Below are positions 17,870 to 39,524 of a stretch of DNA of 64,000 nt, one piece after another (the first letter of the stretch is position 1; every line of letters starts with the position of its first letter). Below the pieces are notes generated by a model. That model was not told where the DNA came from and ran no database searches. It saw only the letters and a program-made list of their open reading frames with translations. The stretch comes from Myxococcales bacterium. GTDB lineage: Bacteria; Myxococcota; Myxococcia; Myxococcales; JAKAPL01. The stretch is taken from the NCBI GenBank assembly GCA_021783235.1, contig JAJXUD010000001.1, forward strand, positions 170,580 through 234,579, read 5' to 3'. The position numbers and the translations under genes are program-made.

Positions 17870-18333
17870 GCGCGCCTGGGCCCCTCCATTTCCGGGTGGG
17901 CGCCTACGGGCTGCTCGTCGCGGATGGGCGAATCCTCCTCACCCGCACGATCACCCGCTCGGGGATCCTGAACAACTTCCCCGGCGGCGCCATCGAGCTC
18001 GGCGAGGCGCCGCTCGCGGCGCTGGTGCGCGAGCTGCGCGAGGAGACCGGGCTCGTCGTGCGGCCCGGGGAGCTCGTCCACGCCACCGAGGGCTACCACC
18101 AGTCGGCCGACTATCCCGAGAACCAGCTCGTCAAGATCTACTGGCGCGTCCAGGCGATCGGCGGCGAGCTGCGGCTCGAGGGGAACGGCGACGACGTGGC
18201 CGGCTGCTTTTGGGCCGACCTTCGCGAGGTCGACCGGCTGGGGCTCGGCGACTCCGATCACGAGGCCATCGAGCGGCTGCGAGCCCAGGGGCTGCTCGGG
18301 CCTCAGCCCGCCGTGCGTGGCACCGCGGGCTGA
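17866..18333 (+). CDS. NUDIX hydrolase
   Basis: GTG overlaps the upstream stop; 'FPGGAIELGEAPLAALVRELREETG'. Confidence 0.85.
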   Translation: MSAPGPLHFRVGAYGLLVADGRILLTRTITRSGILNNFPGGAIELGEAPLAALVRELREETGLVVRPGELVHATEGYHQSADYPENQLVKIYWRVQAIGGELRLEGNGDDVAGCFWADLREVDRLGLGDSDHEAIERLRAQGLLGPQPAVRGTAG

Positions 18334-18349
18334 GGGCCACGCGACGCCT

Positions 18350-18913
18350 TCAGGAGCGGTGGTGGCGCCTGCGGCGCCGGCGCTGCTTGCCGGGCTTCGC
18401 GTGCGCGGTCGCCGGCGCCGGCCAGACCGAAAAATGGAGCACGAGCGGCAAGAAGCGCCGGCCTCCGACGTCGGTCGGCAGCGACCCGGCCTCGCCGTCG
18501 ATGACGAGCCGGCAGCAGAGCTTCGACGGCAGCGGCTCGCTGGGCCGAAGGACGAACGACGTGCCGCCGTCGGCCGCCTCGATCTCGAGCCGGTTCGGCC
18601 GGAGCCGGTCCTCGGAATCGATGATGCGGACGCGCACGTCCGAGAGCTCCGCCGAGGTCCGCAGCGTCAGCTCCGCGCCGCCCGGAACCGATGCGTCCGG
18701 GGCCATGAGATCGGCTCGGCCGCCGTCCCACTCCGCCTCGGCGCCAAAGCCCGGCAACGGCCCGGGACCGGCGTCGACGGGCGGCGGCGGCGGGGGGCCG
18801 GCGTCGGGCGGCGCCGGCGGTGGCGCGGGCAAAGGCCTCTGGCAGGCGCCGAAGACCACGAGCAGCGCTCCGGCCAAAGGGCCGAGAAGGGACGTTCTTG
18901 TTACTCGTGCCAT
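18350..18913 (-). CDS. Host lipoprotein, target of provirus integration; first codons supplied by E1
   Basis: MARVTR-TSLLGPLAGALLVVFGAC lipobox; AGGAG RBS; the att core lies at codons 6-11. Confidence 0.75.
   Translation of the reverse strand: MARVTRTSLLGPLAGALLVVFGACQRPLPAPPPAPPDAGPPPPPPVDAGPGPLPGFGAEAEWDGGRADLMAPDASVPGGAELTLRTSAELSDVRVRIIDSEDRLRPNRLEIEAADGGTSFVLRPSEPLPSKLCCRLVIDGEAGSLPTDVGGRRFLPLVLHFSVWPAPATAHAKPGKQRRRRRRHHRS
18878..18905 (+). other. dif-like attachment site L: AGGGCCGAGAA-GGGACG-TTCTTGTTACT
   Basis: Shares 15 bp CCGAGAAGGGACGTT (18882-18896) with 28655-28669; 11-6-11 layout like dif. Confidence 0.8.
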
Positions 18914-19451
18914 GGAAGTCGCTCCTGCCTGACAGACCGGGTTTGCTTCCGCCATGCCCATCCGGCGAGGGGCCGGGGCCGAGCAGCCACTCGGAGATCC
19001 ACGACCATCGCGGCTCCGCGTCCTCCGCCTCGCGTCGTGCCCCGGCGAGGCCGTCAGGGTACCTCTGACATGCCTGCGACCAACAGCCCGGCGGGAGCGC
19101 CGCCGGCGAGAGGCCGACGAGCCAGACGAGCGGGGAGCGGAGTCCGCCATGGTCCGGCTCGTCGCCGAGCTGGCGCTGTAAAACGATTATGCCAGCGAAC
19201 TCGAGGCGGTCGAGGGCGCGCGAAATTGACGGCCGCCCGTACGGCCCGACAAGCCCAAGCCCCGCGCCGCTCGCGCCCGTCATGTTGAAGCTCAGGGGCA
19301 GCGTCGGCCGCTCCCAGACCGACCGCGCGAGCTCGCGCACGAGCTCGCGCTCGAGGCCGCGGCGCCCCTCGAGGGAGCGCCGCTGCCACTCCTCGACGGC
19401 GTCTCTCCAGACGTCGATGGCGCGGCGGAGCTCGAGCGCGGGCGCGGTCAC
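18882..19451 (-). CDS. N-terminal half (wHTH) of the E1 putative replication protein, cut at the att core
   Basis: GTG 19451 overlaps the upstream TGA; 'GRPSISRALDRLEFAGIIV' resembles the wHTH of phage replication proteins; reads NVPSR across the core. Confidence 0.65.
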
Positions 19452-20107
19452 GGCGAGCAGACCCCCTCGCTCGCGCTGCAGCCCGAGAAGGTCGGGATGG
19501 TCCAGCTCGCCGAGCAGGTCGTACCGCCGCACTGGCTCGCGCTCGTGCACTGGGTCACGCAGACATCGTTGCCGTTCGCATCGGTCGCGCAACAGCCCTG
19601 GGAGCACGTCTGCGCGCCGTTGCAGCCATCGTAGAGGGCGCCGTCGTTGGCCTTGCAGACATACGGCCCCACGGGGTTCCCGCTGGAATCCGCCAGTGGA
19701 GCGCACGCGCCCCCAGTGGCGCACTCGGCCGCGGTCGTGCACCTGCATGCCTGAGTCGTGGCCGCACCGTTCGGAGCGCAGGCGGACTGGCCGGTTTCCT
19801 TGCCGGATGAATCGAAGAGCACGCTGCAGCACTGGGCGTCCGCCGGGCACTGGGCGCTATCCGTGCAGATCGTTCCGCAGGCCTTGTTGCCCGCTGCGTC
19901 GGCGATGCAGACGGCGCCGGTGCTGCAGCATGTGGCGCCGCAGGGCGCGGAGCAGCATGAGCCGTTCAAGCACGACTGGCCGGTGCCGCAGCAGCTCGAG
20001 CCGCAGGGGCTCGAGCATGAGCCGCTCGTCGTCCCTCCACCTGGTGAACCGCCGCCGCACGCTGCCAGCACCGCTGCGAGGCCAAAGACGACGAGGATCG
20101 GACGCAT
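19448..20107 (-). CDS. Cys-rich lipoprotein (E1 cargo)
   Basis: MRPILVVFGLAAVLAAC lipobox, many Cys repeats; same position as 39079-39354 in E2. Confidence 0.8.
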   Translation of the reverse strand: MRPILVVFGLAAVLAACGGGSPGGGTTSGSCSSPCGSSCCGTGQSCLNGSCCSAPCGATCCSTGAVCIADAAGNKACGTICTDSAQCPADAQCCSVLFDSSGKETGQSACAPNGAATTQACRCTTAAECATGGACAPLADSSGNPVGPYVCKANDGALYDGCNGAQTCSQGCCATDANGNDVCVTQCTSASQCGGTTCSASWTIPTFSGCSASEGVCSP

Positions 20108-20273
20108 GGGGTTTCCCCTCCCGGGGGAAAGGCCCCGCCCAGATCGCGCCTCCGAAGCGCGACCGGGCAGGGGTTCGAGGCTCGCGGGCGCGAGCGATGA
20201 ACGGGATTGACCGTCGGAGTCGGCCACGTGCAGATTCTAACTAGATCCTCTGACGGTCGGTCAAGCCCGAAAT

Positions 20274-20657
20274 CTAACCCGACGCCTGCGCGCCGCCCTG
20301 GAGGAGCTGGAGCCCACCGTCCGACGACGAGCCCTCCCGACGGTGCCGGAGCGCTCTGACTGCTGCCCAGGCCCCGCCAGCGAGCGCCGCGGCGAGCGCC
20401 AGGCCCGCGAAGACGCCCCAGGCGGACGTGCCGTCGGACTTGTCGGACTGACGGTCCGAGTTTTCGGAGGTCCGACGCTCGGACCCTTCGGACTTCTGGT
20501 CGGACTTCTTGGTCTGACGCTCGTCCGACTTCTCGGTCCGGATGGTCTCCCAGCCGACGAACTTCCCCTTGCCGCCGCCGTCCGGGGCGTCGTACTTCGC
20601 TCGGACAACGCGTCCGTCTTTGAGCTTCCTCTCAGCTCCGACCAGTTTGACCGCCAT
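20274..20657 (-). CDS. E1 protein with charged linker and C-terminal TM segment
   Basis: MAVKLVGAERK...; syntenic with 38650-38961. Confidence 0.6.
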   Translation of the reverse strand: MAVKLVGAERKLKDGRVVRAKYDAPDGGGKGKFVGWETIRTEKSDERQTKKSDQKSEGSERRTSENSDRQSDKSDGTSAWGVFAGLALAAALAGGAWAAVRALRHRREGSSSDGGLQLLQGGAQASG

Positions 20658-20868
20658 CGGCCACCTCACTCTCGACTCGCGGAGGCTCCCAAAGGGCTTC
20701 CTCTAGCCGGCGACGCACCTTCGCCTCGCGCAGCCGCACCCGCGCGGCCGACTCGAGGGCTGTGTCGATAGCGAGCCAGAGCATCCAGAATCCGCCGAGA
20801 AAGAACGCCGCGACGAGCCGATCGGACCGGCGGTCCGCCGCGGCGCTCTCCTTCGATGAATCGATCAC
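20632..20868 (-). CDS. E1 small membrane protein
   Basis: GTG coupled to the upstream stop; one hydrophobic segment. Confidence 0.55.
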   Translation of the reverse strand: MIDSSKESAAADRRSDRLVAAFFLGGFWMLWLAIDTALESAARVRLREAKVRRRLEEALWEPPRVESEVADGGQTGRS

Positions 20869-21167
20869 GCCGGGACCGACCCGCCCTCACCGGAGGAGGC
20901 CTGCGGGAGCGCGGGGGCGTCCGCCGGGGTGTCGAGCGCGTCGATGACGCCGTCGACGGCATCGGCGAGCCCGCGGACCCCCTCCGCGACGAGCTGCACC
21001 GTGCCGACGACGGCGCCGATGCCGGGGAGTTTCTCGAGGACGCGACCGAGGGGACCGTCGGCGGTCTTCTCGATGACGTCGTCGACCTGGTCGACCTTCG
21101 TACGGACCTCATCGCAGAGCTTGCGGGCCTTGTCGAGCGCGGCCTGGACCTTCGGGGGGCGGCTCAT
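20865..21167 (-). CDS. E1 amphipathic helical protein (lysis region)
   Basis: 'ALDKARK..DQVDD..LPGIG..AEGVR' aligns with 38199-38483 'ALDKAKK..DQVDD..IPGLG..ADGLR'. Confidence 0.75.
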   Translation of the reverse strand: MSRPPKVQAALDKARKLCDEVRTKVDQVDDVIEKTADGPLGRVLEKLPGIGAVVGTVQLVAEGVRGLADAVDGVIDALDTPADAPALPQASSGEGGSVPA

Positions 21168-21379
21168 GCGTGCTCCTTGGCTGTGGCGAGCGTGAGCTCG
21201 CGGGTGACCTCGCGTCGGACGAGGATCTGTTGCTCGAGCCGACCGATGCGCCGCTCGAGCGGGGTGAGATTGCGCGTGAGCACGTCCTCTACGGCGCGCG
21301 TGAAGAGTACCTTCGCGGCCCAGAGGCAGCCGCCAGACAGGGCGGCCGACGCGGCTCCGATGATGAGCTCCCGCATCAT
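21164..21379 (-). CDS. E1 small TM + coiled-coil protein (holin-like)
   Basis: ATGA overlaps on both sides; N-terminal TM, 'RIGRLE'; counterpart 38002-38202. Confidence 0.6.
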   Translation of the reverse strand: MMRELIIGAASAALSGGCLWAAKVLFTRAVEDVLTRNLTPLERRIGRLEQQILVRREVTRELTLATAKEHA

Positions 21380-30085: not shown

Positions 30086-30726
30086 GCTGGGACACGGGAG
30101 GAAACCGTGCGCGCGAACGGGCGGCCGAGGTCACCCACCGCCTCTGGCGCGCGCGCGCGGTCCTGCGCGAGCTCGAGCGCTTTGTCGCTCTAGGGGGCGC
30201 CCGGCCGGGGGAACCGAGCGATTGCCTCGCTGGGCTCGTGTCGGAGCTGGCGGCCGCCGTCGACCGCGGCCCCGGCCTCCTCGACGGACCATCGCCCCAG
30301 CTCGTGCTCCCCCTCCATCGCTGGATCGCCCTCCAGTGTCGCCGCTGCGGCGGCCTGTTCGGCGAGCGCTTCGTGCCGGTGGCGCCCCCGCGCGACTTCG
30401 TCGAGGTCCGCTGTCCGCTCTGTCCCGGCCAGCGAGCGGATGAGGTCCCTCTCTGCGGCCGCGAGATCAGCGGCTCCCGCCACTGCACGGCAATCGCGCC
30501 GTGCCTGTATCACGACCAGGAGGAGGACCATGCCAGACCCGATCGAGCAGCTCCGCGACTGGAAGAGAAAGTTGGGCTTCTGGAGGGACGGGAGGTTCCC
30601 GACGGTGGCCCAACGCGACTTCGTGGCGGGGCGGCTCTGCCGCCAGCTCCTCGGAGACCTCGACCCGATCATCGAGAGCTTGACGCCGCCCGGGCCACCG
30701 ACCCCGAGCGCCCCGACCGAACCTGA
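30082..30726 (+). CDS. E2 Zn-binding protein
   Basis: GGAGG RBS, ATGA overlap with rep; CRRC, CPLC, 'DEVPLCG', 'CTAIAPCLYH'. Confidence 0.7.
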   Translation: MSWDTGGNRARERAAEVTHRLWRARAVLRELERFVALGGARPGEPSDCLAGLVSELAAAVDRGPGLLDGPSPQLVLPLHRWIALQCRRCGGLFGERFVPVAPPRDFVEVRCPLCPGQRADEVPLCGREISGSRHCTAIAPCLYHDQEEDHARPDRAAPRLEEKVGLLEGREVPDGGPTRLRGGAALPPAPRRPRPDHRELDAARATDPERPDRT

Positions 30727-30856
30727 CATGCTCAATTTCGCGCTCGACCATCTTTTCTCAGCGCTGCACGACCTCTCGGAGGGCCGCCCAGAGTTCGCCC
30801 GTCCGCGCCTGCAGGCCGCCCTTCAACTGCTCCTCGGGACCGAGGTGTTGCCGTGA
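30530..30856 (+). CDS. E2 hypothetical protein
   Basis: AGGAGG RBS before ATG 30530 (MPDPIEQL...). Confidence 0.6.
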   Translation: MPDPIEQLRDWKRKLGFWRDGRFPTVAQRDFVAGRLCRQLLGDLDPIIESLTPPGPPTPSAPTEPDMLNFALDHLFSALHDLSEGRPEFARPRLQAALQLLLGTEVLP

Positions 30857-31047
30857 GGGTCGCCGGCTGTCTTCACGAGGAATTCAACGGGGAAGCTTGC
30901 CCGTGCGCTGGCTCAGGCATTCTTTGCGACAGCGCCGATCTCGGGTGTCTGGGCTGCATCAGGGAGGGACCGCTCCCGTGCGATGGATGCGCGTGCTGCG
31001 CGAGGGACGACGAGGCGGAGCTCGGCGGCGAAGCCGGGGGACCGTGA
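30853..31047 (+). CDS. E2 small Cys-rich protein
   Basis: GTGA coupling; 10 Cys in 64 aa. Confidence 0.5.
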   Translation: MRVAGCLHEEFNGEACPCAGSGILCDSADLGCLGCIREGPLPCDGCACCARDDEAELGGEAGGP

Positions 31048-31316
31048 GCGACCAGCTCGCACTTCCGCTTTTCGGGGCCGCCCCGCGCCGAGAGGCGAAG
31101 GACGGATGCCGAGGATGCGATGCGGAGACGGTGGTCATCGTCGACCCGCACGGCGGCCGGACCGAGTGGTGCCGCGATCTCTGCTCTTCCTGGGCGCGGG
31201 CCGAGTGGCTTCGGTTCTGCCGAGAGACCGGGACGCCGCGCGGCGCGCACCCGGCGTTCGGCCTCACGGCGTCACGGCCGAGCTCGCCGGCGGACCTGAG
31301 CCGAGACGAGCGGTAG
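31044..31316 (+). CDS. E2 small Cys-containing protein
   Basis: GTGA coupling; MSDQLALPLF..., CRGC, CRDLC. Confidence 0.55.
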   Translation: MSDQLALPLFGAAPRREAKDGCRGCDAETVVIVDPHGGRTEWCRDLCSSWARAEWLRFCRETGTPRGAHPAFGLTASRPSSPADLSRDER

Positions 31317-31463
31317 GCCATCCTCGCCGAGCGGGAGCCGCCAGACGCCCCTTGGCCCCGGTCCCTTCCAGCCGGTGATCCGCCTCGAGGCGAGCCAGCG
31401 ATAGATGGTCCGCTCATCTACTTCTACGAGCCGCGCGGCCCGCCCCACCGTCACAAAGACCAT
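31272..31463 (-). CDS. E2 excisionase/MerR-like HTH protein
   Basis: 'VTVGRAARLVEVDERTIYRWL...VWRL'; same position and orientation as the E1 HTH gene. Confidence 0.8.
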   Translation of the reverse strand: MVFVTVGRAARLVEVDERTIYRWLASRRITGWKGPGPRGVWRLPLGEDGLPLVSAQVRRRARP

Positions 31464-31480
31464 GCCCTCGCCCCTTCCGT

Positions 31481-31520
31481 GTCCGATCCTGTCCTATCCT
31501 GCCTAAACCCGTCCAGTATC
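31481..31520. promoter_or_regulatory. Four imperfect 10-bp direct repeats (GTCCGATCCT-like), putative operator
   Basis: Located between the divergent HTH gene and late operon, as in E1. Confidence 0.5.
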
Positions 31521-31552
31521 CACCGTCCGGCCGACGCCAGTAGCCTTGTCGC

Positions 31553-32056
31553 GTGACGTCCGGAGACCAGATCTCGCTGCCCCCCGACCCCGCCGCGCTC
31601 GAAGCGGCCGCCGCGGCGATCGCCGCGAAGCACCAGGAGGCCGACCGTGAGAAAGTAACTCCGCCGCCCGCCGCCGCCCCCCCGGCAGCCGAGCAGCCCT
31701 CCCCCGCAACTGCCTTCTCGCCGGCGGACGACGAGGCGAACCTCGCGGTCACGTTGCCCGCCCTCATCAAGCTCGTCGCGCTGAAGCTCGCCCGCTCCCA
31801 GCCGGAAGGCGCGCGGAGCCTCGCCGCCCAGGCCGCCCGCTCCGCCCAGGCCGTGGCGAAGCAGCTCGCCGTCATGCTGCGCGGCCGCTACTCCGCCCAG
31901 CTCCCGAGCCTCGCCCTCCTCGCCGCCTTCGCGGACCCCTTCATCTCCGACCGGCTCTCCAAGGTCCTCGGCGGCGCGCCCCCGCCGCCGCCCTCCCCTC
32001 TCCGCCAGGTCCCCGCGGACCTCGGGCTCGAGGAAGACCCGGAGCCCTCCCCGTGA
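31553..32056 (+). CDS. E2 first late-operon protein
   Basis: Pro/Ala-rich with hydrophobic helices; coupled to the ATPase gene. Confidence 0.6.
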   Translation: MTSGDQISLPPDPAALEAAAAAIAAKHQEADREKVTPPPAAAPPAAEQPSPATAFSPADDEANLAVTLPALIKLVALKLARSQPEGARSLAAQAARSAQAVAKQLAVMLRGRYSAQLPSLALLAAFADPFISDRLSKVLGGAPPPPPSPLRQVPADLGLEEDPEPSP

Positions 32057-32757
32057 TCCGCGTCCTCGCGCTCGCCCTGAGCCTCGCCATGCCCCGCCCC
32101 TCCGTCTCGTCGTCCGCCGCGCTCGCCTCGATGCCCGAGGGCGGCGCGGCCGCGATCTGTGGCCTGCCGCGCTCGGGCAAGAGCCGCATCGCGAAGGCCG
32201 CCGCCGACCAGCTCCGCCGCGTCGTGGTCTTCGATCCGTATGGCGACCGCGACCGGCTCGAGAGCGCGCACGGCCATGAGCTCTACCCGTGGACCGGGGA
32301 CCTCTGGTCCATCCGCGAGCTCGCCCTCCATCCGGGGGCCCTCCTGCCCGACCCCCTACGCCTCGTCGTCACCCCCCGAGCCCTCGATGAGCACACGCTC
32401 GGGCAGGACTTCGCCTCGCTCGCCGAGCTCTGCTGGCATGCCGGCAACCTCGACCTCGTCGCCGAGGAGGCTTCGCTCTACAGCCGCCAGGCCGCCTCGG
32501 CCGTCCTGCGGCTGACCTCCGGCGGCGGCCACGCCCGCGTGCGCCTCATCCTCATCACGCAGTCCATTGGGATGCTCAGCATCATGGCAGCCCGGCATCT
32601 GACCCACGTCGTCGCGCTGAATCAGAGCGACGCGAGCGATTTCAAAATTCTCGCCGCGCGGTGCGGCAAAGCCTTCACCCGCAAGGTGCAGGCCTGGACG
32701 CCGGGCGACCGGCCGAACATCTGGCGCCTCGGCGCCGAGCGGGAGAAGCCATGCTGA
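32053..32757 (+). CDS. E2 genome-packaging ATPase (FtsK/HerA, A32-like)
   Basis: GLPRSGKS, 'VVVFDPY', 'LVAEE', 'GGGHARVRLILITQ'. Confidence 0.85.
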   Translation: MIRVLALALSLAMPRPSVSSSAALASMPEGGAAAICGLPRSGKSRIAKAAADQLRRVVVFDPYGDRDRLESAHGHELYPWTGDLWSIRELALHPGALLPDPLRLVVTPRALDEHTLGQDFASLAELCWHAGNLDLVAEEASLYSRQAASAVLRLTSGGGHARVRLILITQSIGMLSIMAARHLTHVVALNQSDASDFKILAARCGKAFTRKVQAWTPGDRPNIWRLGAEREKPC

Positions 32758-32906
32758 AGAAGATCTCCGACAACCTCGACGTGCTGGCCATCGGCGGCCT
32801 CCTCGGCATCTTCCTCGCCGACCAGCTCATCATCCCCGCCTTCGGCCGGGTCGCGCGCCTCGTCATCATCGCGAACGCCGCCGGCATCACCCCCCCGCAG
32901 TACTGA
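32751..32906 (+). CDS. E2 51-aa membrane protein
   Basis: GGAG RBS; hydrophobic; between ATPase and capsid genes. Confidence 0.6.
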   Translation: MLKKISDNLDVLAIGGLLGIFLADQLIIPAFGRVARLVIIANAAGITPPQY

Positions 32907-32914
32907 GGATCGCC

Positions 32915-34207
32915 ATGGCCAACCGCTTTCTCGAAACGCTCTCCTTCGCGGGGAGCGGCACCAAGAAGACCCTCAACCCCGGGGACCTCACCATCTCCGA
33001 GGGCGACGTCGCCAAGGGCGTCGAGCTTCGCATCTCGCTGCCCATCAAGAACAACGGCGCGGCCGCGATCCTCGGGACGCTCTCCAAGGCCCTCACCTAC
33101 GCGCTGAAGACGTTCTCCCTCGCCTTCGGCAAGGAGAAGGCACTGACGCTCTGGAGCCAGGAGATCGGGTCCAACCTGCTCCTCGCCCATCGCTGGGCCT
33201 ATGGCACGGTGCCCGCCGTCGCGAGCTCGACCGGCCTCGGCGCGAGCTACTTCGGAGGAACCGGCCTCGCCGCCGGCGGCACGGAGACGCTGACGTTCTG
33301 GGCGCGCATCCCGTTCGAGGCGTGGCGCATGCTCAACCGCAAGCGGCTCGCGGTCGGCTACAGCCAGTTCAAGACGCTCTTCTTCGAGAACCAGACCGGC
33401 CAGCCGACGGACCTGGACGCCTCGGGGAACATCGTCCAGAACGGCAACATGAGCATCGACCTCGTGGCGCCGGTCGACGAGGGGGACGACGTGGTCTCCC
33501 CCGCGATCGCCTGGCGCAAGAACAGCCGCACCGGTCTCTGGGTCGCGCTCTCGAGGGGCCTGCCGCTGATGCTCGCCGAGACGAGCTCGGGGTTCGCGGG
33601 CACGGCGCTCGACCTCGTCAACCTCTTCGTGGGCGACATGCACAACGAGGGGGACCGGGTGAAGTACATCCAGGACTACCATCAGGATACGCTGGCCGGG
33701 ACGAGCGACATCAGCGACACGGTCACGATGCTCCTCGAGCTGATGCCGAACACCGAGTTCCTCCGCCAGCCGAGCGGCCCGATCAAGGTCACGCAGCCGA
33801 CGAGCGAGGAGGCCACGCTGAACATCGCGGGGCTCATCGTCCCCGACATGGACGAGAACATCCGGGCCGGCATCGCCGCCGAGATCGCGCGGCAGACCGA
33901 GGGCAACTTCCACCTCGTCAACAGGGTGGCGGCGCACTCGATCCCGGACGTTCCCGTCCGGTCCCTCGACTACGCGGGCTACCTGCTCGCGCGGCCGGGC
34001 GACCCCACCTACGACGCCTACGACGCCGAGAACTACGGCGCCGACGGCGTCAAGACCGGGCTCTACAAGGCCCCGACCGCGAACGCCGGCAAGGCGGCCG
34101 TCCAGAAGATCTCGAAGCTCAGCTCCATCCCGGGCGTCCTCGGGAAGAGCACGAGCCCCGCGATCCGCAAGGCGATCGTCAGGCCCCCCCACTTCGGCGC
34201 GGTCTAA
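32915..34207 (+). CDS. E2 putative major capsid protein (double-jelly-roll-like)
   Basis: GAGG RBS, strongly biased codons; 'TETLTFWARIPFE...SQFKTLFFE' jelly-roll-like strands; homologous to the E1 capsid candidate. Confidence 0.7.
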   Translation: MANRFLETLSFAGSGTKKTLNPGDLTISEGDVAKGVELRISLPIKNNGAAAILGTLSKALTYALKTFSLAFGKEKALTLWSQEIGSNLLLAHRWAYGTVPAVASSTGLGASYFGGTGLAAGGTETLTFWARIPFEAWRMLNRKRLAVGYSQFKTLFFENQTGQPTDLDASGNIVQNGNMSIDLVAPVDEGDDVVSPAIAWRKNSRTGLWVALSRGLPLMLAETSSGFAGTALDLVNLFVGDMHNEGDRVKYIQDYHQDTLAGTSDISDTVTMLLELMPNTEFLRQPSGPIKVTQPTSEEATLNIAGLIVPDMDENIRAGIAAEIARQTEGNFHLVNRVAAHSIPDVPVRSLDYAGYLLARPGDPTYDAYDAENYGADGVKTGLYKAPTANAGKAAVQKISKLSSIPGVLGKSTSPAIRKAIVRPPHFGAV

Positions 34208-34216
34208 GGAGCCACC

Positions 34217-34444
34217 ATGTCCACCGGAACCGCACTCGCCATCGGAGGGGTCGTCCTTCTGCTCCTCCTCTCGAGCCGCAACCAGTACCCCGCCGGCTAC
34301 CCCGGCGGGATGATGCCCGGCGGCCTCTTCGGCGGCGGGATGGGCGGCCTCGGCGGCCTCTTCGGCGGCGGAGCGACGATCGGAGCGCCGAGCGGCTTCG
34401 GCGGCTACGGCTCCGCCTACGGCACCCCCTACTCGATCCCCTGA
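34217..34444 (+). CDS. E2 small membrane protein with Gly-rich tail
   Basis: AAGGAG RBS, N-terminal TM. Confidence 0.7.
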   Translation: MSTGTALAIGGVVLLLLLSSRNQYPAGYPGGMMPGGLFGGGMGGLGGLFGGGATIGAPSGFGGYGSAYGTPYSIP

Positions 34445-34451
34445 GGCCCCG

Positions 34452-34586
34452 ATGCCGAAGAAGCTCTCCGCCACCACGATGCTCCTCCTCGCCGGGGGCG
34501 CCTGCCTCGCCTACTGGGTGTGGAAGTCCCGGCAGTCCTTGAACGCGACGACGTCCGCGCTCGCCGCCGTGCCCCTCGTCCCGTAG
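34452..34586 (+). CDS. E2 44-aa membrane protein
   Basis: GAGG RBS; MPKKLSATTMLLLAGGACLAYWVWK (below the ORF-track size cutoff). Confidence 0.6.
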   Translation: MPKKLSATTMLLLAGGACLAYWVWKSRQSLNATTSALAAVPLVP

Positions 34587-34597
34587 GAGCAGCCGCC

Positions 34598-34771
34598 ATG
34601 TCCGACACGATGATCCTCGGCGTGCTGGCGATCTTCGGGCTGATCGTCTTCTCGCAGATGGAGAACAGCGCGAGGAGCGCCCAGACCATCGGGAACAGCC
34701 AGGCGCTCGCGTTCCAGAGCGGGCAGTCCTCCCAGGGGCTCATGGGGCTGCTCTCCGGGGTCGGGCTGTAA
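34598..34771 (+). CDS. E2 57-aa membrane protein
   Basis: AGGAG RBS; MSDTMILGVLAIFGLIVF. Confidence 0.6.
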   Translation: MSDTMILGVLAIFGLIVFSQMENSARSAQTIGNSQALAFQSGQSSQGLMGLLSGVGL

Positions 34772-35844
34772 TGATCCGCCTCGTGGGCGCATCGGCCGGC
34801 GTCGCCGCCGACCTCTCGCGGCTCGATCCGACGGGCCAGGCGGGGCCGTCCGGGGCGGCGGGAAGTTCGGCCCCGACCGACGCGAGCGGCGCGCCCTTGC
34901 CCTCGCCGCCGCCAGGCTTCCACTGGGCGGTCTCGGTCGGTGAGGGCATCACCGCCCTCGTCTGGGACGCGCCGAAGGCCTCCCAGGCGTCGGCGCCGAC
35001 CCAGGCCGCGCCCGCGGGCTACGCCTGGACCAAGATCACGGTGCCTGGGGGCGCCTTCTTCGCCGCGCTGACCCCCGCCGATGCGAGCATGATCGGCCGC
35101 GTCGACTCGGCGTTCGCGGCGGGCTACCTCGTCGGGCCGCCGTGGCTGGCCGGGAACGCCGCTCGAGCGGCCTCGACCTCGACGGTCAATGCCTCGCTCC
35201 TCCAGGGCCGACAGCAGCACGCCGCCGCCGCCGCCGCCGATGCCGCCGCGGCCGCAGAGGCCGCGCACGCGAAGGGGCTCACCGATGCGCTCACGGCGGT
35301 CACCGGAGCCGCCCTCGCGGCCTACTCGTCGGCTCAGGCCGCGCTCGCGAGCTCGACCGGGGGCGTGACCCCCGGGGCAACCTCGACCGTCGCCCCCCAG
35401 CAGATCGCGCTCGACCAGTCCGCCATCCAGGCAATCGCCCAGGCCGCCGCGGCAGCTCAGGCCATCGGTCCGGCTCTCACCGCGGCCAAGGCCGAGCGGC
35501 AATCCCTGCAAGCTGCCGCACAAGCAGCCGGCACGGCGGAGTTCGGCTACCCGGACTCGAGTCGCCCGGGGTACGCCTCCGCCGTCGCCGCCCTGAAGGC
35601 GCTCGATGCCGCGCTCGTCGACGGGAAGGCTGCACAGTCGACGGTCGCGAGCTGGGCCAAGCAGCAGTCGGCCAACGTCAACTCCGACCTCTCGTTCCAG
35701 CAACAACAGGCCGGCGGGGGGCAGAGTGGCTCCTCGAGCCTCCCCTGGCTCTGGATCGCCGCCGGGGCGGCGCTCGTCGGCTATCTCCTCTGGCGGCAGA
35801 GCAAGAAGAAGAAGGCCGAGCCCAAGCCGGAGCCGTCCAAGTGA
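34771..35844 (+). CDS. E2 Ala-rich coiled-coil protein with C-terminal TM anchor (DNA delivery/pilot-like?)
   Basis: 357 aa; ends 'LPWLWIAAGAALVGYLLWRQSKKKK'. Confidence 0.65.
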   Translation: MIRLVGASAGVAADLSRLDPTGQAGPSGAAGSSAPTDASGAPLPSPPPGFHWAVSVGEGITALVWDAPKASQASAPTQAAPAGYAWTKITVPGGAFFAALTPADASMIGRVDSAFAAGYLVGPPWLAGNAARAASTSTVNASLLQGRQQHAAAAAADAAAAAEAAHAKGLTDALTAVTGAALAAYSSAQAALASSTGGVTPGATSTVAPQQIALDQSAIQAIAQAAAAAQAIGPALTAAKAERQSLQAAAQAAGTAEFGYPDSSRPGYASAVAALKALDAALVDGKAAQSTVASWAKQQSANVNSDLSFQQQQAGGGQSGSSSLPWLWIAAGAALVGYLLWRQSKKKKAEPKPEPSK

Positions 35845-36710
35845 GCGGCCCCGCTCGAGCGAAGCTCCCCCGGACCACTCGCAACGTCGAGCTGAAGGTC
35901 GGCTCCGACATCGCGGGTAGCGCCTGGGGCGTCTCGCTGTCCTGGCCGAAGTTCTACGACGCGCCGAACCTCCTCAGTCCGCCCCTCGAGGTGCTCTGCT
36001 ACCTCGACGGGAACGAGACGGACCTCGTCCTGTTGACGCTCGGCCGCGTCTACTACGGCTGGTTCAACCGCCTGACGGTCGCCGACTTCTCGAAACAGGC
36101 GGCCGACCTGGTCGTGGCCGGGGGGCCCACGCCGATCCTCGTCGACGTCACCGTGCTGCCGGACAAGGAGAGCGCGGTGTGGGACCGCGCGGAATCGCCG
36201 CGCACGCTGACGCAGGTCCAGAGCGGCCAACAGCTCGAGTCGCCCTTCGGTGAGCAGCTCGCGGGCCTCGATGCCACCGGAATAGGGCGGCTCGTCGGGG
36301 CCGATGCAGCGGGGCATGCCCTCACGACGCAACGTCGAGGGGTCAACGTGTTCTTCTCCGACGGTGGCATCTTCACCGTCGGCGGTGCCTATTTTCAGCC
36401 GCTCGGGACTGGAGCGCGCTCGGGCATTGCCTCCGGCGCTGACGTTTATTCTGGAGTGATGGGAGTTACCGCGTTCGTGGGAGGGACGAGCCCCACGCTG
36501 AGCTTCAGCTTCTTTAGCTCCAACGATCTGTGTGACACCGGCTCATATGCAAACACGCCCGGGAATGCTTCCTCCGCCGGAGGCAACGCCATATCCCCGG
36601 CAGGACAGCAGGGCATCCCAATCGATTGGCCATTCGTGAATTTCCAAGGCGACATCGCCGGTTCGCCGACCTCGACGACCGTGACCGGAGTGTATGTTTA
36701 TGGCCACTGA
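35841..36710 (+). CDS. E2 putative spike/receptor-binding protein
   Basis: GTGA coupling; beta-rich; homologous to 22322-23083; lower-GC C-terminus. Confidence 0.6.
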   Translation: MSGPARAKLPRTTRNVELKVGSDIAGSAWGVSLSWPKFYDAPNLLSPPLEVLCYLDGNETDLVLLTLGRVYYGWFNRLTVADFSKQAADLVVAGGPTPILVDVTVLPDKESAVWDRAESPRTLTQVQSGQQLESPFGEQLAGLDATGIGRLVGADAAGHALTTQRRGVNVFFSDGGIFTVGGAYFQPLGTGARSGIASGADVYSGVMGVTAFVGGTSPTLSFSFFSSNDLCDTGSYANTPGNASSAGGNAISPAGQQGIPIDWPFVNFQGDIAGSPTSTTVTGVYVYGH

Positions 36711-37155
36711 TGCAAGAGGCAACCTGCTCATGCTTGGACAGGCCGTGACGCTCCATGCCGATGTCGCGGCCAAGAACGGTCTGCTGACAGGAGTCATCGA
36801 GCACCTCATTCCGTCCGGCTCCGCGATCCCCCGCGGCGGGGGCGCCAGGCTGGGGACCGTCACCGTCCATTGCGGGCCGACCGCCCGGCCTGCCGCCTTG
36901 GAGTATTGCCGAGCGGCTCATCATCCGACTGATGGTTCGCCCGTGCCTGCGCTCAACCCCGTTTCGGTCGACGTCGCGATCGTTCGGCTAGATGCCGCGG
37001 GAGAGGCCGCGCTCGTCGCCTGGGCCGCCGGCCGGCCGGTCCATCCCGATCACGCTCTCGACGATTCCTGCGGCCAGCTCGGCGCGCCTGTCGGCGCTCG
37101 TACCTGCACCTGCCCCGTCCGCGCCTGGCTGCGCGCCGATCTGGTGAACCCGTGA
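36694..37155 (+). CDS. E2 hypothetical protein
   Basis: 153 aa, in operon, no E1 counterpart. Confidence 0.5.
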   Translation: MFMATDARGNLLMLGQAVTLHADVAAKNGLLTGVIEHLIPSGSAIPRGGGARLGTVTVHCGPTARPAALEYCRAAHHPTDGSPVPALNPVSVDVAIVRLDAAGEAALVAWAAGRPVHPDHALDDSCGQLGAPVGARTCTCPVRAWLRADLVNP

Positions 37156-37481
37156 TCTCCGGCCTCGATCCCGTCGACCCGAACGCCGCTGCGAACGGCT
37201 GGTCCTCGGACCCGGTCTCGTCGGCGCTCGACGGAATGAGCCCCGACCCCTCGATGGGCGGAACGCCCTATGGGCAGGAGGGCATGTACGCCCAGGGCGA
37301 CCCGAACCAGTCTCCGCTTTCGAAGATCGACAACAGCCTCTTCGACGGGGGCGGCGGCGGCGGGGGCCTCCCCGGCCTGGGCGGCCTCTTTGGCGTCGGC
37401 GGGATGGGCGGCCTCGGCACCGTCGGAATCATGGTCCTCGTCGGACTGGGCCTCATCCTCGCGATCGAGGTGGCGAAGTAA
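37152..37481 (+). CDS. E2 putative virion membrane protein
   Basis: C-terminal TM; counterpart of 21995-22321. Confidence 0.65.
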   Translation: MISGLDPVDPNAAANGWSSDPVSSALDGMSPDPSMGGTPYGQEGMYAQGDPNQSPLSKIDNSLFDGGGGGGGLPGLGGLFGVGGMGGLGTVGIMVLVGLGLILAIEVAK

Positions 37482-38005
37482 TGGACCCTCTCCTCGAAGG
37501 AGTCGTCCTCGTGAGCGCAGCCCTCTTCCTGGCCCTCTGGATCGCTGCGAAGACCGGCGATCCGAACCTCGATCGCTTCGGCATCCGAGGCCGCATCATC
37601 CTCCGGGGCGCGGAGCACTTCGGCCCGCGGCTCTCTCGGCCAATCGTGCGGGCTCTCATGGCGATCGTCCACCAGGAGAGCGGCGGATTGCAGGTGAATT
37701 ACCTCGGCGACAAGACCGCCCCCGGCGGCCCCAGCGTCGGCCCTGGCCAGGTGGAGTACGCGACCGCCAAGGAACTCGGGCTCATCCCGCAGACCGAGAC
37801 CCGCGACCAGTACGCCGCCCGCGTCTCCCAGGAGGGCTGGGGAATCGACGCGATGGTGCAGGTCTTCAAGGCGAAGCTCGCCGCGGCGCATGGCGACGTG
37901 GCCGATGCGATCCGCAGGTACAACGGCGGGGGACAGGCCGCGCTCGGATACCAGGCGTCCGCGCTCGATTGGGCTCAGCAGACCTGGCCGGGGGCCATCT
38001 CGTGA
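37481..38005 (+). CDS. E2 membrane-anchored lytic transglycosylase (SLT-like)
   Basis: 'AIVHQES' catalytic Glu, 'GPGQV', 'AIRRYNGG'; N-terminal TM. Confidence 0.85.
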   Translation: MDPLLEGVVLVSAALFLALWIAAKTGDPNLDRFGIRGRIILRGAEHFGPRLSRPIVRALMAIVHQESGGLQVNYLGDKTAPGGPSVGPGQVEYATAKELGLIPQTETRDQYAARVSQEGWGIDAMVQVFKAKLAAAHGDVADAIRRYNGGGQAALGYQASALDWAQQTWPGAIS

Positions 38006-38202
38006 TCCCGCTCGAGCTGCTCTGGGCCGTCGGCGCGGCGATCGTCGTGGAGCTCGCAAGGGCGATCACCCTCTGGCAGGTCCGGAGCATCATCGCGGCC
38101 GAGCTCCGCCCCTACGGCTCGCAGCTCCGAGCCGTCGAAACCGGTTTGCGCTCCTGTCTGGAGCGCGTCACGCGCCTCGAGGCGCAAGGAGAGCACCGAT
38201 GA
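38002..38202 (+). CDS. E2 small TM + coiled-coil protein (holin-like)
   Basis: N-terminal TM, 'ERVTRLE'. Confidence 0.6.
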   Translation: MIPLELLWAVGAAIVVELARAITLWQVRSIIAAELRPYGSQLRAVETGLRSCLERVTRLEAQGEHR

Positions 38203-38483
38203 CGACAGGCGGAACGAGCGCGATGGAGAAGATCAAGTCGGCCCTCGACAAGGCCAAGAAGATCGCCGACCAGGTCGACGACTCGGTGGACAAGCTCCAC
38301 AGCTTTGCGGGGACGTTCGCGCGGCTCATCCCGGGCCTCGGCGAGATCGAGGCCGTCGTCGTCACCCTCGCCGATGGGCTCCGCGCGGCCGTCGACACGC
38401 TCGACGGCGTCGTCTCGCTCGCCGCCGGCGATCTCCCCGCCTCGTCGACGAGCCCCACGCAGGCCCTCGAGGGCGCGAAGTGA
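38199..38483 (+). CDS. E2 amphipathic helical protein
   Basis: Homolog of 20865-21167. Confidence 0.75.
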   Translation: MTTGGTSAMEKIKSALDKAKKIADQVDDSVDKLHSFAGTFARLIPGLGEIEAVVVTLADGLRAAVDTLDGVVSLAAGDLPASSTSPTQALEGAK

Positions 38484-38653
38484 GCGGCGAGGCCTCCGCC
38501 CCGCCGAAGCCGCCGCCCCCGGGCTACGACTGCGAGTACTGGGCCTACACCCGCGGGGCCATCAAGGGCGGCCTGATCGGCCTCGCTTGCTGCGTCGCCG
38601 TCGCGTTCCTCTGCGACGCGGCGCGGGACTTCACCAGGCTGCGGCGCGCGTGA
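38480..38653 (+). CDS. E2 57-aa membrane protein
   Basis: GTGA coupling at both ends; 'GAIKGGLIGLACCVAVAFL'. Confidence 0.5.
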   Translation: MSGEASAPPKPPPPGYDCEYWAYTRGAIKGGLIGLACCVAVAFLCDAARDFTRLRRA

Positions 38654-38961
38654 TCCACGCCGAGAAGAAAGGGCCGGATGGCACGATCACGACGTTGCCG
38701 TCCGGCCTCGTCCGCGGTCCGGATGGCAAGCTGCGACGCCAAGCCGCGGCCTCGCCCCCCAAGGCCCCGGCGGTGACCAGGCAAGAGCCGCCGGCGCGCT
38801 CGCCGGAGCCGAAGCTCGAGGGAACGCCAGAACCGAAGCCCGAGAGCAAGAAGCAGGGCGGCGGGGCCATCGCTCTGCTGCTCCTCGTCCTGCTCCTCGG
38901 CTGGGGCTTCGGACGCTCGCGTGAATCGCAGAGCTTTTCGTCCGTCAGTCCCTCGTGGTAG
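38650..38961 (+). CDS. E2 protein with Pro/Lys linker and C-terminal TM
   Basis: MIHAEKKGPDG...GGAIALLLLVLLLGWG; counterpart of 20274-20657. Confidence 0.6.
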   Translation: MIHAEKKGPDGTITTLPSGLVRGPDGKLRRQAAASPPKAPAVTRQEPPARSPEPKLEGTPEPKPESKKQGGGAIALLLLVLLLGWGFGRSRESQSFSSVSPSW

Positions 38962-39016
38962 ACGGTAGGTCGGTTGGTGGACCGACGAATTCCCTGTGAT
39001 GCCTGCGGGCATCCGG

Positions 39017-39065
39017 CTGAACCCCGGAGAGTGGCGCCACCACGCCCCTCCGGGGTTCAGTTTTT
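39017..39065 (+). terminator. Intrinsic terminator ending the E2 late operon
   Basis: Perfect 13-bp stem CTGAACCCCGGAG/CTCCGGGGTTCAG followed by TTTTT. Confidence 0.75.
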
Positions 39066-39078
39066 CTAGGGAGGCCTC

Positions 39079-39354
39079 ATGCGACCCGTTGCGTTGCTCC
39101 TCGTGCTCCTCGCCGGCTGCGGCCCGGCGCTCGAGCGTCCCGCGGAATCGACGGCTGCTCTCACCCTCGACGGCGGCGGCTGTCCGGCGGGCTACGACCC
39201 CTGCCTGGGCGGCTGCATGCCGAGCGGCGAAGCCTGCTGCGCCTTCGACGGTGGCTCGACGTGGAGCTGCGGTGGTGGCTCGTCGTGCGCCGGCTTCAAG
39301 TGCTTCTCCCCCGACGCCGGCCCGTGGTGCTCCTACATCTGCTACCCGGACTGA
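39079..39354 (+). CDS. Cys-rich lipoprotein (E2 cargo)
   Basis: GGGAGG RBS; MRPVALLLVLLAGC lipobox; Cys-rich. Confidence 0.8.
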   Translation: MRPVALLLVLLAGCGPALERPAESTAALTLDGGGCPAGYDPCLGGCMPSGEACCAFDGGSTWSCGGGSSCAGFKCFSPDAGPWCSYICYPD

Positions 39355-39474
39355 CGGCCTTGTCGGACAAGGATCGCGACATGCCTGTCAGGCGCAACAG
39401 ACCCCCGAGGCCAGTCCTCTCGGGCCCTTCCCGACCTTCGCCCGCGAGGTTCGCGCGGCGAGGGCGGCGGGCCC

Positions 39475-39502
39475 GGCGGGCGGGAGGGACGTTATGTTCC
39501 TT
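39475..39502 (+). other. dif-like attachment site R: GGCGGGCGGGA-GGGACG-TTATGTTCCTT
   Basis: 16 bp shared with site M; about 25 bp downstream of the guaA stop; carries the original 5' end (MRRRNITS) of the host lipoprotein gene. Confidence 0.8.
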
Positions 39503-39524
39503 CGACGCATTCCCGACAGACCGC

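What the first reader, a model, noticed from the sequence alone, without database searches (positions are those of the whole stretch)
18878..39502. Integrase-less integration at dif-like sites: probable XerCD hijacking by a jelly-roll virus
Seen: three direct-repeat sites (18878, 28651, 39475) with an 11-6-11 layout and identical spacer GGGACG. Reconstructed attB is AGGGCCGAGAA-GGGACG-TTATGTTCCTT, attP1 is TTGCCCGAGAA-GGGACG-TTCTTGTTACT and attP2 is GGCGGGCGGGA-GGGACG-TTATGTTCCAC. No tyrosine or serine recombinase is visible in either element. Known: E. coli dif is GGTGCGCATAA-TGTATA-TTATGTTAAAT; IMEX elements (CTXphi, VGJphi, TLC) use host XerCD and form tandem arrays. Inference: both viruses are IMEXs; attP2 has a degenerate XerC-side arm and attP1 a divergent XerD-side arm. 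The order of arrival cannot be determined from the sequence.
Basis: partly seen in the sequence, partly recalled or inferred. Interest (0 to 1): 0.85.

Follow-up and report, generated by a model that had tools for sequence, protein, structure and literature searches.

The report
Two capsid proviruses parked at dif
Two small tailless (double jelly-roll capsid) viruses without any integrase sit side by side at the chromosome's dimer-resolution site, so they most likely borrow the host XerC/XerD enzymes to integrate, a trick already described for similar viruses in other bacteria.

Summary
Three direct 28-bp sites (18878, 28651, 39475) share AGGGACGTT (3 hits against 0.24 expected) and bound two elements of 9.7 and 10.8 kb. 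Each element has a PRD1-like double jelly-roll capsid gene and an FtsK-type ATPase.

- No tyrosine or serine recombinase is detectable in either element.
- The host encodes XerD, an XerC-like protein and FtsK-gamma.
- The site behaves as the host dif. It lies at the contig's GC-skew maximum and at the switch in GGGNAGGG polarity. It is the only such site in the assembly.
- Two family relatives carry the site empty at the same guaA-lipoprotein junction. A third relative carries it occupied.
- In another family, two related proviruses form a 24-kb tandem insert exactly at that genome's canonical dif, again without an integrase.
- Of 11 related elements found away from dif, 6 carry a tyrosine integrase and 10 a small serine recombinase.

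The concept is in print: dif-type versus int-type DJR prophages in Vibrio, and the phages Jorvik and PhiCjT23. This is therefore a new member of a known kind, in a Myxococcales-like host.

Three details appear to be new. The two viruses have complementary half-site attPs that bracket one rebuilt dif. The dif lies inside a lipoprotein gene's first codons. The proviruses carry host-like, dif-pointing KOPS polarity.

The parts
18878..18905 (+). Site 1 (attL of the array): host XerC-side arm, shared hexamer GGGACG, and the divergent XerD-side arm of E1. It lies inside the 5' end of the lipoprotein gene.
28651..28678 (+). Site 2 (hybrid): the good XerC-side arm of E1, GGGACG, and the good XerD-side arm of E2. 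It equals the inferred empty site at the 22 inner positions of 28, so it is the probable working dif.
39475..39502 (+). Site 3 (attR of the array): the degenerate XerC-side arm of E2, GGGACG, and the host XerD-side arm. It lies 22 nt from the guaA stop codon.
18350..18913 (-). Host lipoprotein gene (signal peptide ending in a Cys lipobox). Its first 4-5 codons and its start codon now come from E1.
   Evidence: homologues beside the site in G001, G002 and G003
39525..41069 (-). guaA (GMP synthase), the host flank on the right.
18906..28650 (-). Provirus E1 (9,745 bp between the sites; genes on the minus strand, transcribed away from site 2).
18918..19481 (-). E1 terminal gene, an HTH protein (start uncertain). 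It is not a recombinase by any search.
   Evidence: no family; HTH-type clusters, score 0.93, a lead only
23894..25354 (-). E1 major capsid protein (486 aa), homologous to the E2 capsid family.
   Evidence: hhalign probability 99.9%, E 1.4e-31, 429 columns
25536..26228 (-). E1 packaging ATPase (Walker A; FtsK/HerA-like).
   Evidence: phrog_2666, 5e-12; 37% identity to the E2 ATPase
21376..21960 (-). E1 lytic enzyme, homologous to the E2 transglycosylase-like protein.
   Evidence: 32% identity, E 8e-10
28679..39474 (+). Provirus E2 (10,796 bp between the sites; genes on the plus strand, transcribed away from site 2).
28827..29069 (+). E2 first gene: Acb2/Tad1 hairpin-domain protein, a candidate anti-defence nucleotide sponge.
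   Evidence: PF24729, 4.4e-15, 56 bits against a cut-off of 27
28751..30085 (+). E2 open frame whose C-terminal ~300 aa look like a rolling-circle Rep. The first ~100 codons overlap the previous gene and are probably not translated.
   Evidence: Rep_1-bearing clusters, score 0.96, a lead; no Pfam or PHROG hit
31272..31463 (-). E2 small HTH protein (excisionase/MerR-like HTH_17, below cut-off).
   Evidence: 1.2e-4, 22.7 bits against a cut-off of 27; phrog_66, 0.0035
32053..32757 (+). E2 packaging ATPase.
   Evidence: phrog_2666, 2.9e-8
32915..34207 (+). E2 major capsid protein (430 aa) with a double jelly-roll fold.
   Evidence: pLDDT 88.9; PRD1 P3 and PR772 at E ~1e-12, then STIV, PBCV-1, FLiP and PM2
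37481..38005 (+). E2 lytic transglycosylase-like protein.
   Evidence: phrog_2013, 1.7e-5; phrog_669, 2.8e-4

Best explanation
Window 18878-39502 holds two different temperate double jelly-roll (PRD1-like capsid) viruses. They are integrated head to head at the host chromosome's dif site, which in this family lies between guaA and a lipoprotein gene, inside that gene's first codons. Neither virus has a recombinase. Each circular genome carries a half-competent dif mimic with the host's exact central hexamer (GGGACG). E1 keeps a good XerC-side arm, like TLCphi or GGI. E2 keeps a good XerD-side arm. Host XerC/XerD would synapse such an attP with dif and exchange strands in the hexamer. That leaves one crippled junction and one rebuilt dif. 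Because the two viruses keep opposite arms, E1 always ends on the XerC side of the live dif and E2 on the XerD side. Together they bracket site 2, which is a full dif. Shown here: the sites, the lack of recombinase genes, the dif status of the target, and the comparative pattern. Inferred: catalysis by XerCD, and which strand is exchanged first.
For: Sites and their specificity. Virus identity. No Tyr or Ser recombinase in the array: six-frame HMMs; tblastn with the integrases and resolvases of related elements, best E 0.33, with positive controls elsewhere in the genome. Host XerD, XerC-like protein and FtsK-gamma. Target is dif: (a) the GC-skew maximum of C6 is at 199,197, against site 2 at 199,230; with both elements removed in silico the maximum lies about 10 kb from the junction, on a plateau. 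(b) GGGNAGGG is 69:3 (+:-) left of the array and 5:10 to the right, and the last '+' (197,124) and first '-' (202,276) bracket site 2. (c) No other ...AA-N6-TTATG candidate appears among the 102 TTATG occurrences in the 97%-complete assembly. (d) 3 of 3 family relatives have exactly one GAGAA-N6-TTATGT site. In G001 and G002 it is empty and lies between the guaA stop and the lipoprotein start, with conserved arms but different hexamers, and 14 of 14 GGGNAGGG motifs converge on it. (e) The XerC-side arm matches the published Myxococcus xanthus dif at 9 of 11 positions (PMC2731167, table passage). Independent case: genomes of family f5 have one conserved ATAA-N6-TTATGT dif, which in G253 lies at 51% of the genome from dnaA. 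In G269 two related ~12-kb proviruses form a 24.3-kb insert exactly there, compared with the empty locus in G253 and G029. They are bounded by three sites that share the XerC arm, and no PF00589 match lies in that stretch. Contrast: of 11 related loci away from dif, 6 hold a tyrosine integrase and 10 a small serine recombinase; one lies beside tRNA-Gln and one is an 11.5-kb circular contig. Population hint: in 4 of 4 runs from one study, which may be the source of this DNA, contigs end with 30-nt overlaps exactly where the three sites stop being identical, and E2 stands as its own 10,840- or 10,860-nt contig in 2 of them.
Against: No experiment or read-level junction shows XerCD acting. The alternative junction contigs themselves were not among the rows shown. 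The XerC candidate scores just below NCBIfam's equivalog cut-off (326 against 335). The family's dif differs from the order's consensus: GAGAA instead of GATAA, with a divergent outer XerD arm. It also lies inside a coding sequence, which is unusual for dif. With the elements removed, the skew maximum is about 10 kb from the junction, not on it. To the right of the array the GGGNAGGG polarity is only 10:5. No XafT-like Xer activation factor was found (no DUF3653 hit at E<=0.01), although a TLC-like attP might need one. The genome is a 133-contig draft, so a second dif-like site in unassembled DNA cannot be excluded.
Confidence: 0.8

Rival explanations
1. A dedicated recombinase that no profile recognises does the integration. 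It could be encoded by the elements (for example the E1 HTH protein, the 240-aa coiled-coil protein at 27779-28501, or the shared Zn-finger proteins) or supplied in trans by another element. On this reading the lipoprotein 5' end is simply its target, and the nearness to the terminus is incidental.
For: Most E1 and E2 genes have no family assignment. E2 has a small HTH_17, excisionase-like protein, which in other phages works with an integrase. Both attP flanks supply an in-frame start codon for the lipoprotein, as phages with dedicated integrases often restore their target gene.
Against: E1 and E2 share only the ATPase, a lysin, a small coiled protein and a Zn-finger protein, and none resembles a recombinase. 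The target has every computable property of dif. Related proviruses in another family sit at a canonical dif whose sequence differs from this one. A sequence-specific private integrase would not explain that. Elements of this group that do own an integrase lie elsewhere.
Confidence: 0.1
2. XerCD does the job, but the site is a secondary dif-like sequence (as reported for phage Jorvik, whose attB lies in an operon) and not the chromosome's working dif.
For: The site is inside a coding sequence and departs from the GATAA...TTATGxAACT consensus of the other families in the order. The assembly is fragmented.
Against: The skew and GGGNAGGG switches fall at this place in G000, G001 and G002. There is one such site per family genome and no alternative candidate. 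A weak homologue of the same lipoprotein lies about 400 bp from the canonical dif in G029.
Confidence: 0.05
3. The rolling-circle Rep (an HUH endonuclease) of the virus cuts and joins at the sites and so integrates the genome.
For: E2 has a Rep_1-like protein next to site 2, and a similar protein lies in the second G269 provirus.
Against: E1 has no detectable homologue of it, yet uses the same hexamer and layout. The 11-6-11 architecture with partly palindromic inner arms and a conserved hexamer is that of tyrosine recombinase sites. The junctions are reciprocal and precise.
Confidence: 0.03

Closest known systems
dif-type DJR prophages of Vibrio (IMEX arrays), Commun Biol 2025, PMC12715192 (passages read)
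   Same: They are small tailless DJR-capsid prophages without an integrase. Their attP is dif-like and may be full-length, left-armed or right-armed. They integrate at chromosomal dif and form tandem arrays. Int-type siblings with their own integrase sit at other loci.
   Different: The host here is a high-GC Myxococcales-like MAG, not Vibrio. The capsid is 430-486 aa and ranks nearest PRD1 P3, not the ~270-aa PM2-type P2. No RstR/XafT-like terminal gene pair was recognised. The dif lies inside a gene. That paper's main text has no occurrence of KOPS, orientation, GC skew or Myxococc*.
TLCphi and the gonococcal genetic island (IMEX with a good XerC arm and central region but a divergent XerD arm); review PMC5357621 (passages)
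   Same: The attP of E1 has a good XerC-side arm, a hexamer identical to the host's and a divergent XerD-side arm.
   Different: E1 is a capsid-encoding virus of about 10 kb. No XafT homologue was found. Dependence on FtsK is unknown.
CTXphi / VGJphi type IMEX (XerC-side exchange only, non-homologous central region); PMC5357621
   Same: The two G269 proviruses share only the 11-nt XerC arm with dif and have unrelated hexamers. This fits an exchange on the XerC side only.
   Different: The two elements in this window keep the full host hexamer, so both strand exchanges are possible there.
Phage Jorvik of Rhodobacter capsulatus (PMC10589892, passage) and PhiCjT23-like prophages of Flavobacterium (PMC9719478, passages)
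   Same: They are membrane-containing jelly-roll phages without an integrase. Their att sites resemble dif, and their authors propose XerCD-mediated integration.
   Different: The Jorvik attB is in the cbbII operon, and the authors call its place variable. PhiCjT23 is an ssDNA phage of 6-8 kb. Here the target is at the terminus and two unlike viruses share it.

Membership tests
IMEX (integrative mobile element exploiting Xer) | No element-encoded integrase | tested here: met
   PF00589, PF00239 and PF07508 six-frame searches give no match in C6:189457-210081. Pfam and PHROG scans of 20 ORFs find no recombinase. tblastn with 6 recombinases from related elements plus host XerC/D finds nothing.
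IMEX | Junctions are dif-like: two 11-nt arms around a 6-nt central region | tested here: met
   The arms are conserved and the hexamer varies among the family's sites. The XerC arm matches the published M. xanthus dif at 9 of 11 positions.
IMEX | The target is the chromosome's dif, at the replication terminus | tested here: met
   GC-skew maximum 35 bp from site 2. GGGNAGGG polarity switches there. The site is unique. The same locus is empty in G001 and G002.
IMEX | The host encodes XerC and XerD | tested here: met
   XerD: TIGR02225, 365.9 bits (cut-off 329.6). XerC-like: TIGR02224, 326.2 bits (cut-off 335.15), which passes the subfamily model NF001399.
IMEX | One junction regenerates a usable dif | tested here: met
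   Site 2 equals the inferred empty site at the 22 inner positions of 28.
IMEX | Integration depends on XerC/XerD catalysis | not testable with these tools
   This needs genetics or biochemistry.
TLCphi-type IMEX | An Xer activation factor (XafT, DUF3653) is encoded by the element | tested here: inconclusive
   There is no such Pfam hit at E<=0.01 among the 20 ORFs scanned, but most of these ORFs have no family at all.
Double jelly-roll capsid viruses (PRD1/PM2-like, tailless, membrane-containing) | Major capsid protein with a double jelly-roll fold | tested here: met
   E2: model pLDDT 88.9; Foldseek finds PRD1 P3 at E 1e-12, followed by STIV, PBCV-1, FLiP and PM2. E1: profile match to the same family, probability 99.9%.
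Double jelly-roll capsid viruses | FtsK/HerA-type packaging ATPase next to the capsid gene | tested here: met
   phrog_2666 matches at 5e-12 and 2.9e-8. In both elements the gene lies directly upstream of the capsid gene.
Corticoviridae / Vinavirales specifically | PM2-type short MCP (P2) and PM2-like gene order | tested here: not met
   The MCPs are 430-486 aa and rank nearest PRD1 P3. PM2 P2 is only rank 50. No phylogeny was made.

The most novel reading that the evidence does not exclude
dif-resident jelly-roll proviruses may be adapted to life in the terminus, not merely integrase-less. (1) They carry FtsK-orienting GGGNAGGG motifs at host-like density, all pointing at the live dif: 13 of 13 motifs in 4 proviruses of two bacterial families. 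Their int-type relatives carry 0-2 per ~10 kb. (2) They have lost the tyrosine integrase and also the small serine recombinase that 10 of 11 non-dif relatives keep. This suggests that XerCD at the dif-like attP now serves both integration and multimer resolution of the viral replicon. (3) Two unlike viruses with complementary half-sites can share one dif without destroying it, and each supplies a new start codon for the lipoprotein gene that dif overlaps.
Probability: 0.3. Interest if true: 0.65.

Novelty: new member of a known kind. Interest (0 to 1): 0.5.

Why it matters
The finding extends Xer hijacking by capsid-forming, non-filamentous phages to a distant, high-GC lineage and to a different branch of jelly-roll viruses. 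The same split into int-type and dif-type elements seen in Vibrio appears here too. That supports the view that swapping an integrase module for a dif mimic is a recurrent and easy evolutionary move. The locus is also a clean natural example of two IMEXs with opposite half-sites flanking one rebuilt dif. It raises a testable point: elements that live at dif may have to match FtsK/KOPS polarity so as not to spoil chromosome dimer resolution. For annotation, it shows that small proviruses at the terminus are missed or merged by integrase-based prophage finders.

Tried and rejected
- Capsid searches in the sequence collections gave little. In genome contigs there was 1 weak hit (L026, a Bryobacterales MAG, 43% over 44 residues; not followed up). 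There were no hits in viral contigs for either capsid and none in metagenome contigs.
- The search for homologous proteins gave only 2 hits: P0001 (97% identity, on an 11,259-bp contig) and P0002 (51%).
- No tRNA lies in the window, so a tRNA target is rejected.
- Direct-repeat scans of the int-type relatives L041, L042 and L044 did not reveal their att sites. Their borders remain undefined.
- I looked for dif-like ends on the ~10-kb contigs of G194 (L051, L052). G194's dif lies about 140 bp from a contig end. I found no dif-like ends, so I make no claim for G194.
- Promoter scan: one sigma-70-like match on the minus strand at 19213-19186, about 270 nt upstream of the new lipoprotein start. 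It is only a consensus match and is not used as evidence.
- Read-level proof of circles or empty sites was not obtained. laid contigs only.
- Supplementary files of the papers were not seen. The supplements of PMC12715192 and PMC5894146 may list hosts outside Vibrio or proviruses of this group.
- A search for 'Myxococc', 'double jelly-roll' and 'provirus' (listing only) showed no title about such proviruses. PMC13669383 holds two of the words and was not read.
- A search for 'KOPS', 'IMEX' and 'FtsK' found 6 papers. I read passages from PMC5357621 and PMC6744903, and neither speaks of KOPS inside IMEXs. That does not prove it is not in print.

Full report
THE OBSERVATION. All are on the plus strand with an 11-6-11 layout and the same central hexamer, GGGACG. 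The 9-mer common to all three occurs three times in the window against 0.24 expected, and 0 of 100 shuffles reached three. Sites 1 and 2 share 15 nt, and sites 2 and 3 share 16 nt. These longer cores occur nowhere else in the 4.58-Mb, 133-contig assembly. The window is C6:170580-234579 of a genome that is 72% G+C and 97.45% complete.

WHAT LIES BETWEEN THE SITES. Codon-position G+C shows that the genes of E1 (18906-28650) lie on the minus strand and those of E2 (28679-39474) on the plus strand. The two elements therefore stand head to head around site 2.
- Each has a packaging ATPase (phrog_2666 at 5e-12 and 2.9e-8; 37% identical to each other).
- Each has a large capsid gene directly downstream of the ATPase.
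- The E2 capsid protein has 67 distant relatives of about 440-450 aa among 1.84 billion representatives.
- Folded with 59 of them, it gives a confident model (pLDDT 88.9). Its best structural matches are PRD1 P3 and PR772 (E about 1e-12), followed by STIV, PBCV-1, FLiP and PM2. This is a double jelly-roll capsid protein.
- The 486-aa E1 protein matches the same profile (probability 99.9%).
- The elements also share a lysin, a small coiled protein and a Zn-finger protein.
- E2 additionally has an Acb2/Tad1-hairpin protein, a Rep_1-like protein (a lead only) and a small HTH_17 protein (below cut-off).

NO RECOMBINASE.
- Six-frame HMM searches of the whole genome found 8 tyrosine recombinase matches and 2 serine recombinase matches. 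None lies in C6:189457-210081.
- tblastn with the integrases and resolvases of related elements found nothing in the array (best E 0.33), though it did find the host's resolvases elsewhere.

THE TARGET IS THE HOST DIF. The host has XerD, an XerC-like paralogue and FtsK with its gamma domain. Several lines place dif here:
- The cumulative GC skew of the 247-kb contig climbs for 199 kb and then falls. Its maximum is at 199,197, and site 2 is at 199,230. With both elements cut out, the maximum lies on a plateau about 10 kb from the junction.
- GGGNAGGG is given as the FtsK-orienting motif for E. coli and V. cholerae in PMC5357621. It is 69:3 in favour of the plus strand to the left of the array and 5:10 to the right. 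Permuted control motifs are far less skewed.
- Among 102 TTATG occurrences in the assembly, nothing else looks like dif.
- All 3 other genomes of the family have exactly one GAGAA-N6-TTATGT site.
- In G001 and G002 that site is empty. It lies between the guaA stop and the first codons of the homologous lipoprotein gene, and the arms are conserved while the hexamer differs: GGGGCG and TCGGCC.
- On those two contigs, 14 of 14 GGGNAGGG motifs converge on the site.
- In G003 the site is occupied. The lipoprotein-side contig ends 130 bp into foreign DNA, and the guaA-side contig begins with 120 bp of foreign DNA. The two junctions share 16 nt and have a degenerate left arm on the guaA side, as in E2.
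- The left arm of the inferred empty site matches the dif that Carnoy and Roten list for Myxococcus xanthus at 9 of 11 positions (PMC2731167, table passage).
- The dif sites I found in the larger families of the order resemble the M. xanthus and Anaeromyxobacter entries. The order is therefore probably Myxococcales. This is an inference.

AN INDEPENDENT CASE. An ATPase search over 362 other genomes of the order found relatives in 11 of them.
- Genomes of family f5 hold one conserved ATAA-N6-TTATGT site each. In the single-contig genome G253 it lies at 6.30 of 12.35 Mb, opposite dnaA at position 434.
- In G269 the ATPase lies 5.7 kb from that dif.
- Stitching 54 kb shows three sites, 12.3 and 12.0 kb apart, that share the 11-nt XerC arm. 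Each interval holds an ATPase and a capsid gene.
- The flanks that are adjacent in G253 and G029 lie 25 kb apart in G269.
- No PF00589 match falls in that stretch, and tblastn finds no recombinase.
- The hexamers there differ between the sites. This fits an exchange on the XerC side only, as in CTXphi and VGJphi.

THE CONTRAST. The other 11 related loci are not at dif.
- Six hold a tyrosine integrase: L041, L042, L044, L045, L047 and L051.
- Ten hold a small serine recombinase, all but L051.
- Several of these loci are partial contigs, so these are lower bounds.
- L047 has its integrase beside tRNA-Gln.
- L045 is an 11.5-kb contig with a 127-nt terminal overlap.
- All 4 dif-located proviruses have neither enzyme.

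MECHANISM.
- E1's attP (left arm of site 2, right arm of site 1) has a good XerC-side arm, the host hexamer and a divergent XerD-side arm.
- E2's attP (left arm of site 3, right arm of site 2) is the reverse.
- Recombination with dif therefore puts E1 on the XerC side of the rebuilt dif and E2 on the XerD side. This is exactly the arrangement seen.
- Site 2 equals the inferred empty site at its 22 inner positions.
- Either order of arrival gives the same array.

POPULATION HINT. This is an inference. Contigs of four runs from one study, which may be the source of this DNA, cover the array without a single differing letter. They end with 30-nt overlaps at 28655-28684 or 28661-28690, and in two runs also at 39471-39500 or 39485-39514. 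These are exactly the points where the sites cease to be identical. E2 forms its own contig of 10,840 or 10,860 nt in those two runs. From recall, these contigs come from a 31-mer graph. A 16-nt repeat cannot break such a graph, so other junctions (single lysogens, circles) are probably present. I did not see them.

EXTRAS.
- dif overlaps codons 5-13 of the lipoprotein gene.
- E1, E2 and the G003 element each supply an in-frame start codon followed by a basic residue.
- All GGGNAGGG motifs inside the four dif-located proviruses (3, 4, 4 and 2) point at the live dif, at near-host density. The three int-type relatives hold 0, 1 and 2.
- At the level of elements this is only 4 of 4, and the elements' own GC skew favours it, so it is suggestive and nothing more.

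WHAT IS KNOWN. XerCD use by jelly-roll phages is in print:
- dif-type and int-type DJR prophages and IMEX arrays in Vibrio (PMC12715192);
- Jorvik (PMC10589892);
- PhiCjT23-like prophages (PMC9719478).

This finding is therefore a well-supported new member of a known kind, in a new host lineage and a different capsid lineage. XerCD catalysis remains untested.

Noticed in passing
window 28827-29069 (+): The first gene of E2 encodes an 80-aa protein that matches the Acb2/Tad1 hairpin domain (PF24729, 4.4e-15). It is a candidate sponge for CBASS or Thoeris signalling nucleotides, carried by a tailless provirus.
   Followed up: no
window 19448-20227 (-) and 39079-39354 (+): Each provirus ends with a Cys-rich predicted lipoprotein (signal peptide with lipobox, many CxxC-like repeats) next to its crippled att junction. 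It could be a lysogenic-conversion or superinfection-exclusion gene. Neither has a family hit.
   Followed up: partly
window 18878-18913; L060 (G003:C191) 1990-2030; window 28679-28695: The host dif lies inside the lipoprotein's codons 5-13. Three different elements (E1, E2 and the unassembled G003 element) each carry an in-frame ATG or GTG plus a basic residue just outside their XerD-side arm. The lipoprotein therefore keeps a plausible signal peptide after integration.
   Followed up: partly
C6 (whole contig) and window 19-39 kb; G269:C3:432-486 kb: GGGNAGGG is extremely polar in this genome (69:3 over 189 kb). Inside all four dif-located proviruses every copy (13 of 13) points at the live dif. 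Their genes are all transcribed away from dif, head-on to replication.
   Followed up: partly
L041 11800-12441, L042 11699-12379, L044 11855-12463 and 7 further loci: The int-type relatives of these viruses almost always carry a ~200-aa serine recombinase (YLRVSTDEQ motif) beside the replication genes, in addition to the tyrosine integrase. The dif-located elements lack both.
   Followed up: partly
window 27297-27373: Contigs of all four runs also break inside E1, between the genes at 26964-27326 and 27330-27782, and short alternative pieces with 1-2 differing letters are present. E1 is therefore polymorphic in the sampled population.
   Followed up: no
window 17477-18333 (+): Two tandem NUDIX-like genes lie just left of the lipoprotein. 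The same pair flanks the site in G001 and G003, so the left flank is syntenic across the family.
   Followed up: partly
L045 (G105:C31, 11,669 bp): This contig has a 127-nt terminal overlap and encodes an ATPase, a tyrosine integrase and a serine recombinase. It is probably a complete circular genome of an int-type relative binned with its host.
   Followed up: partly
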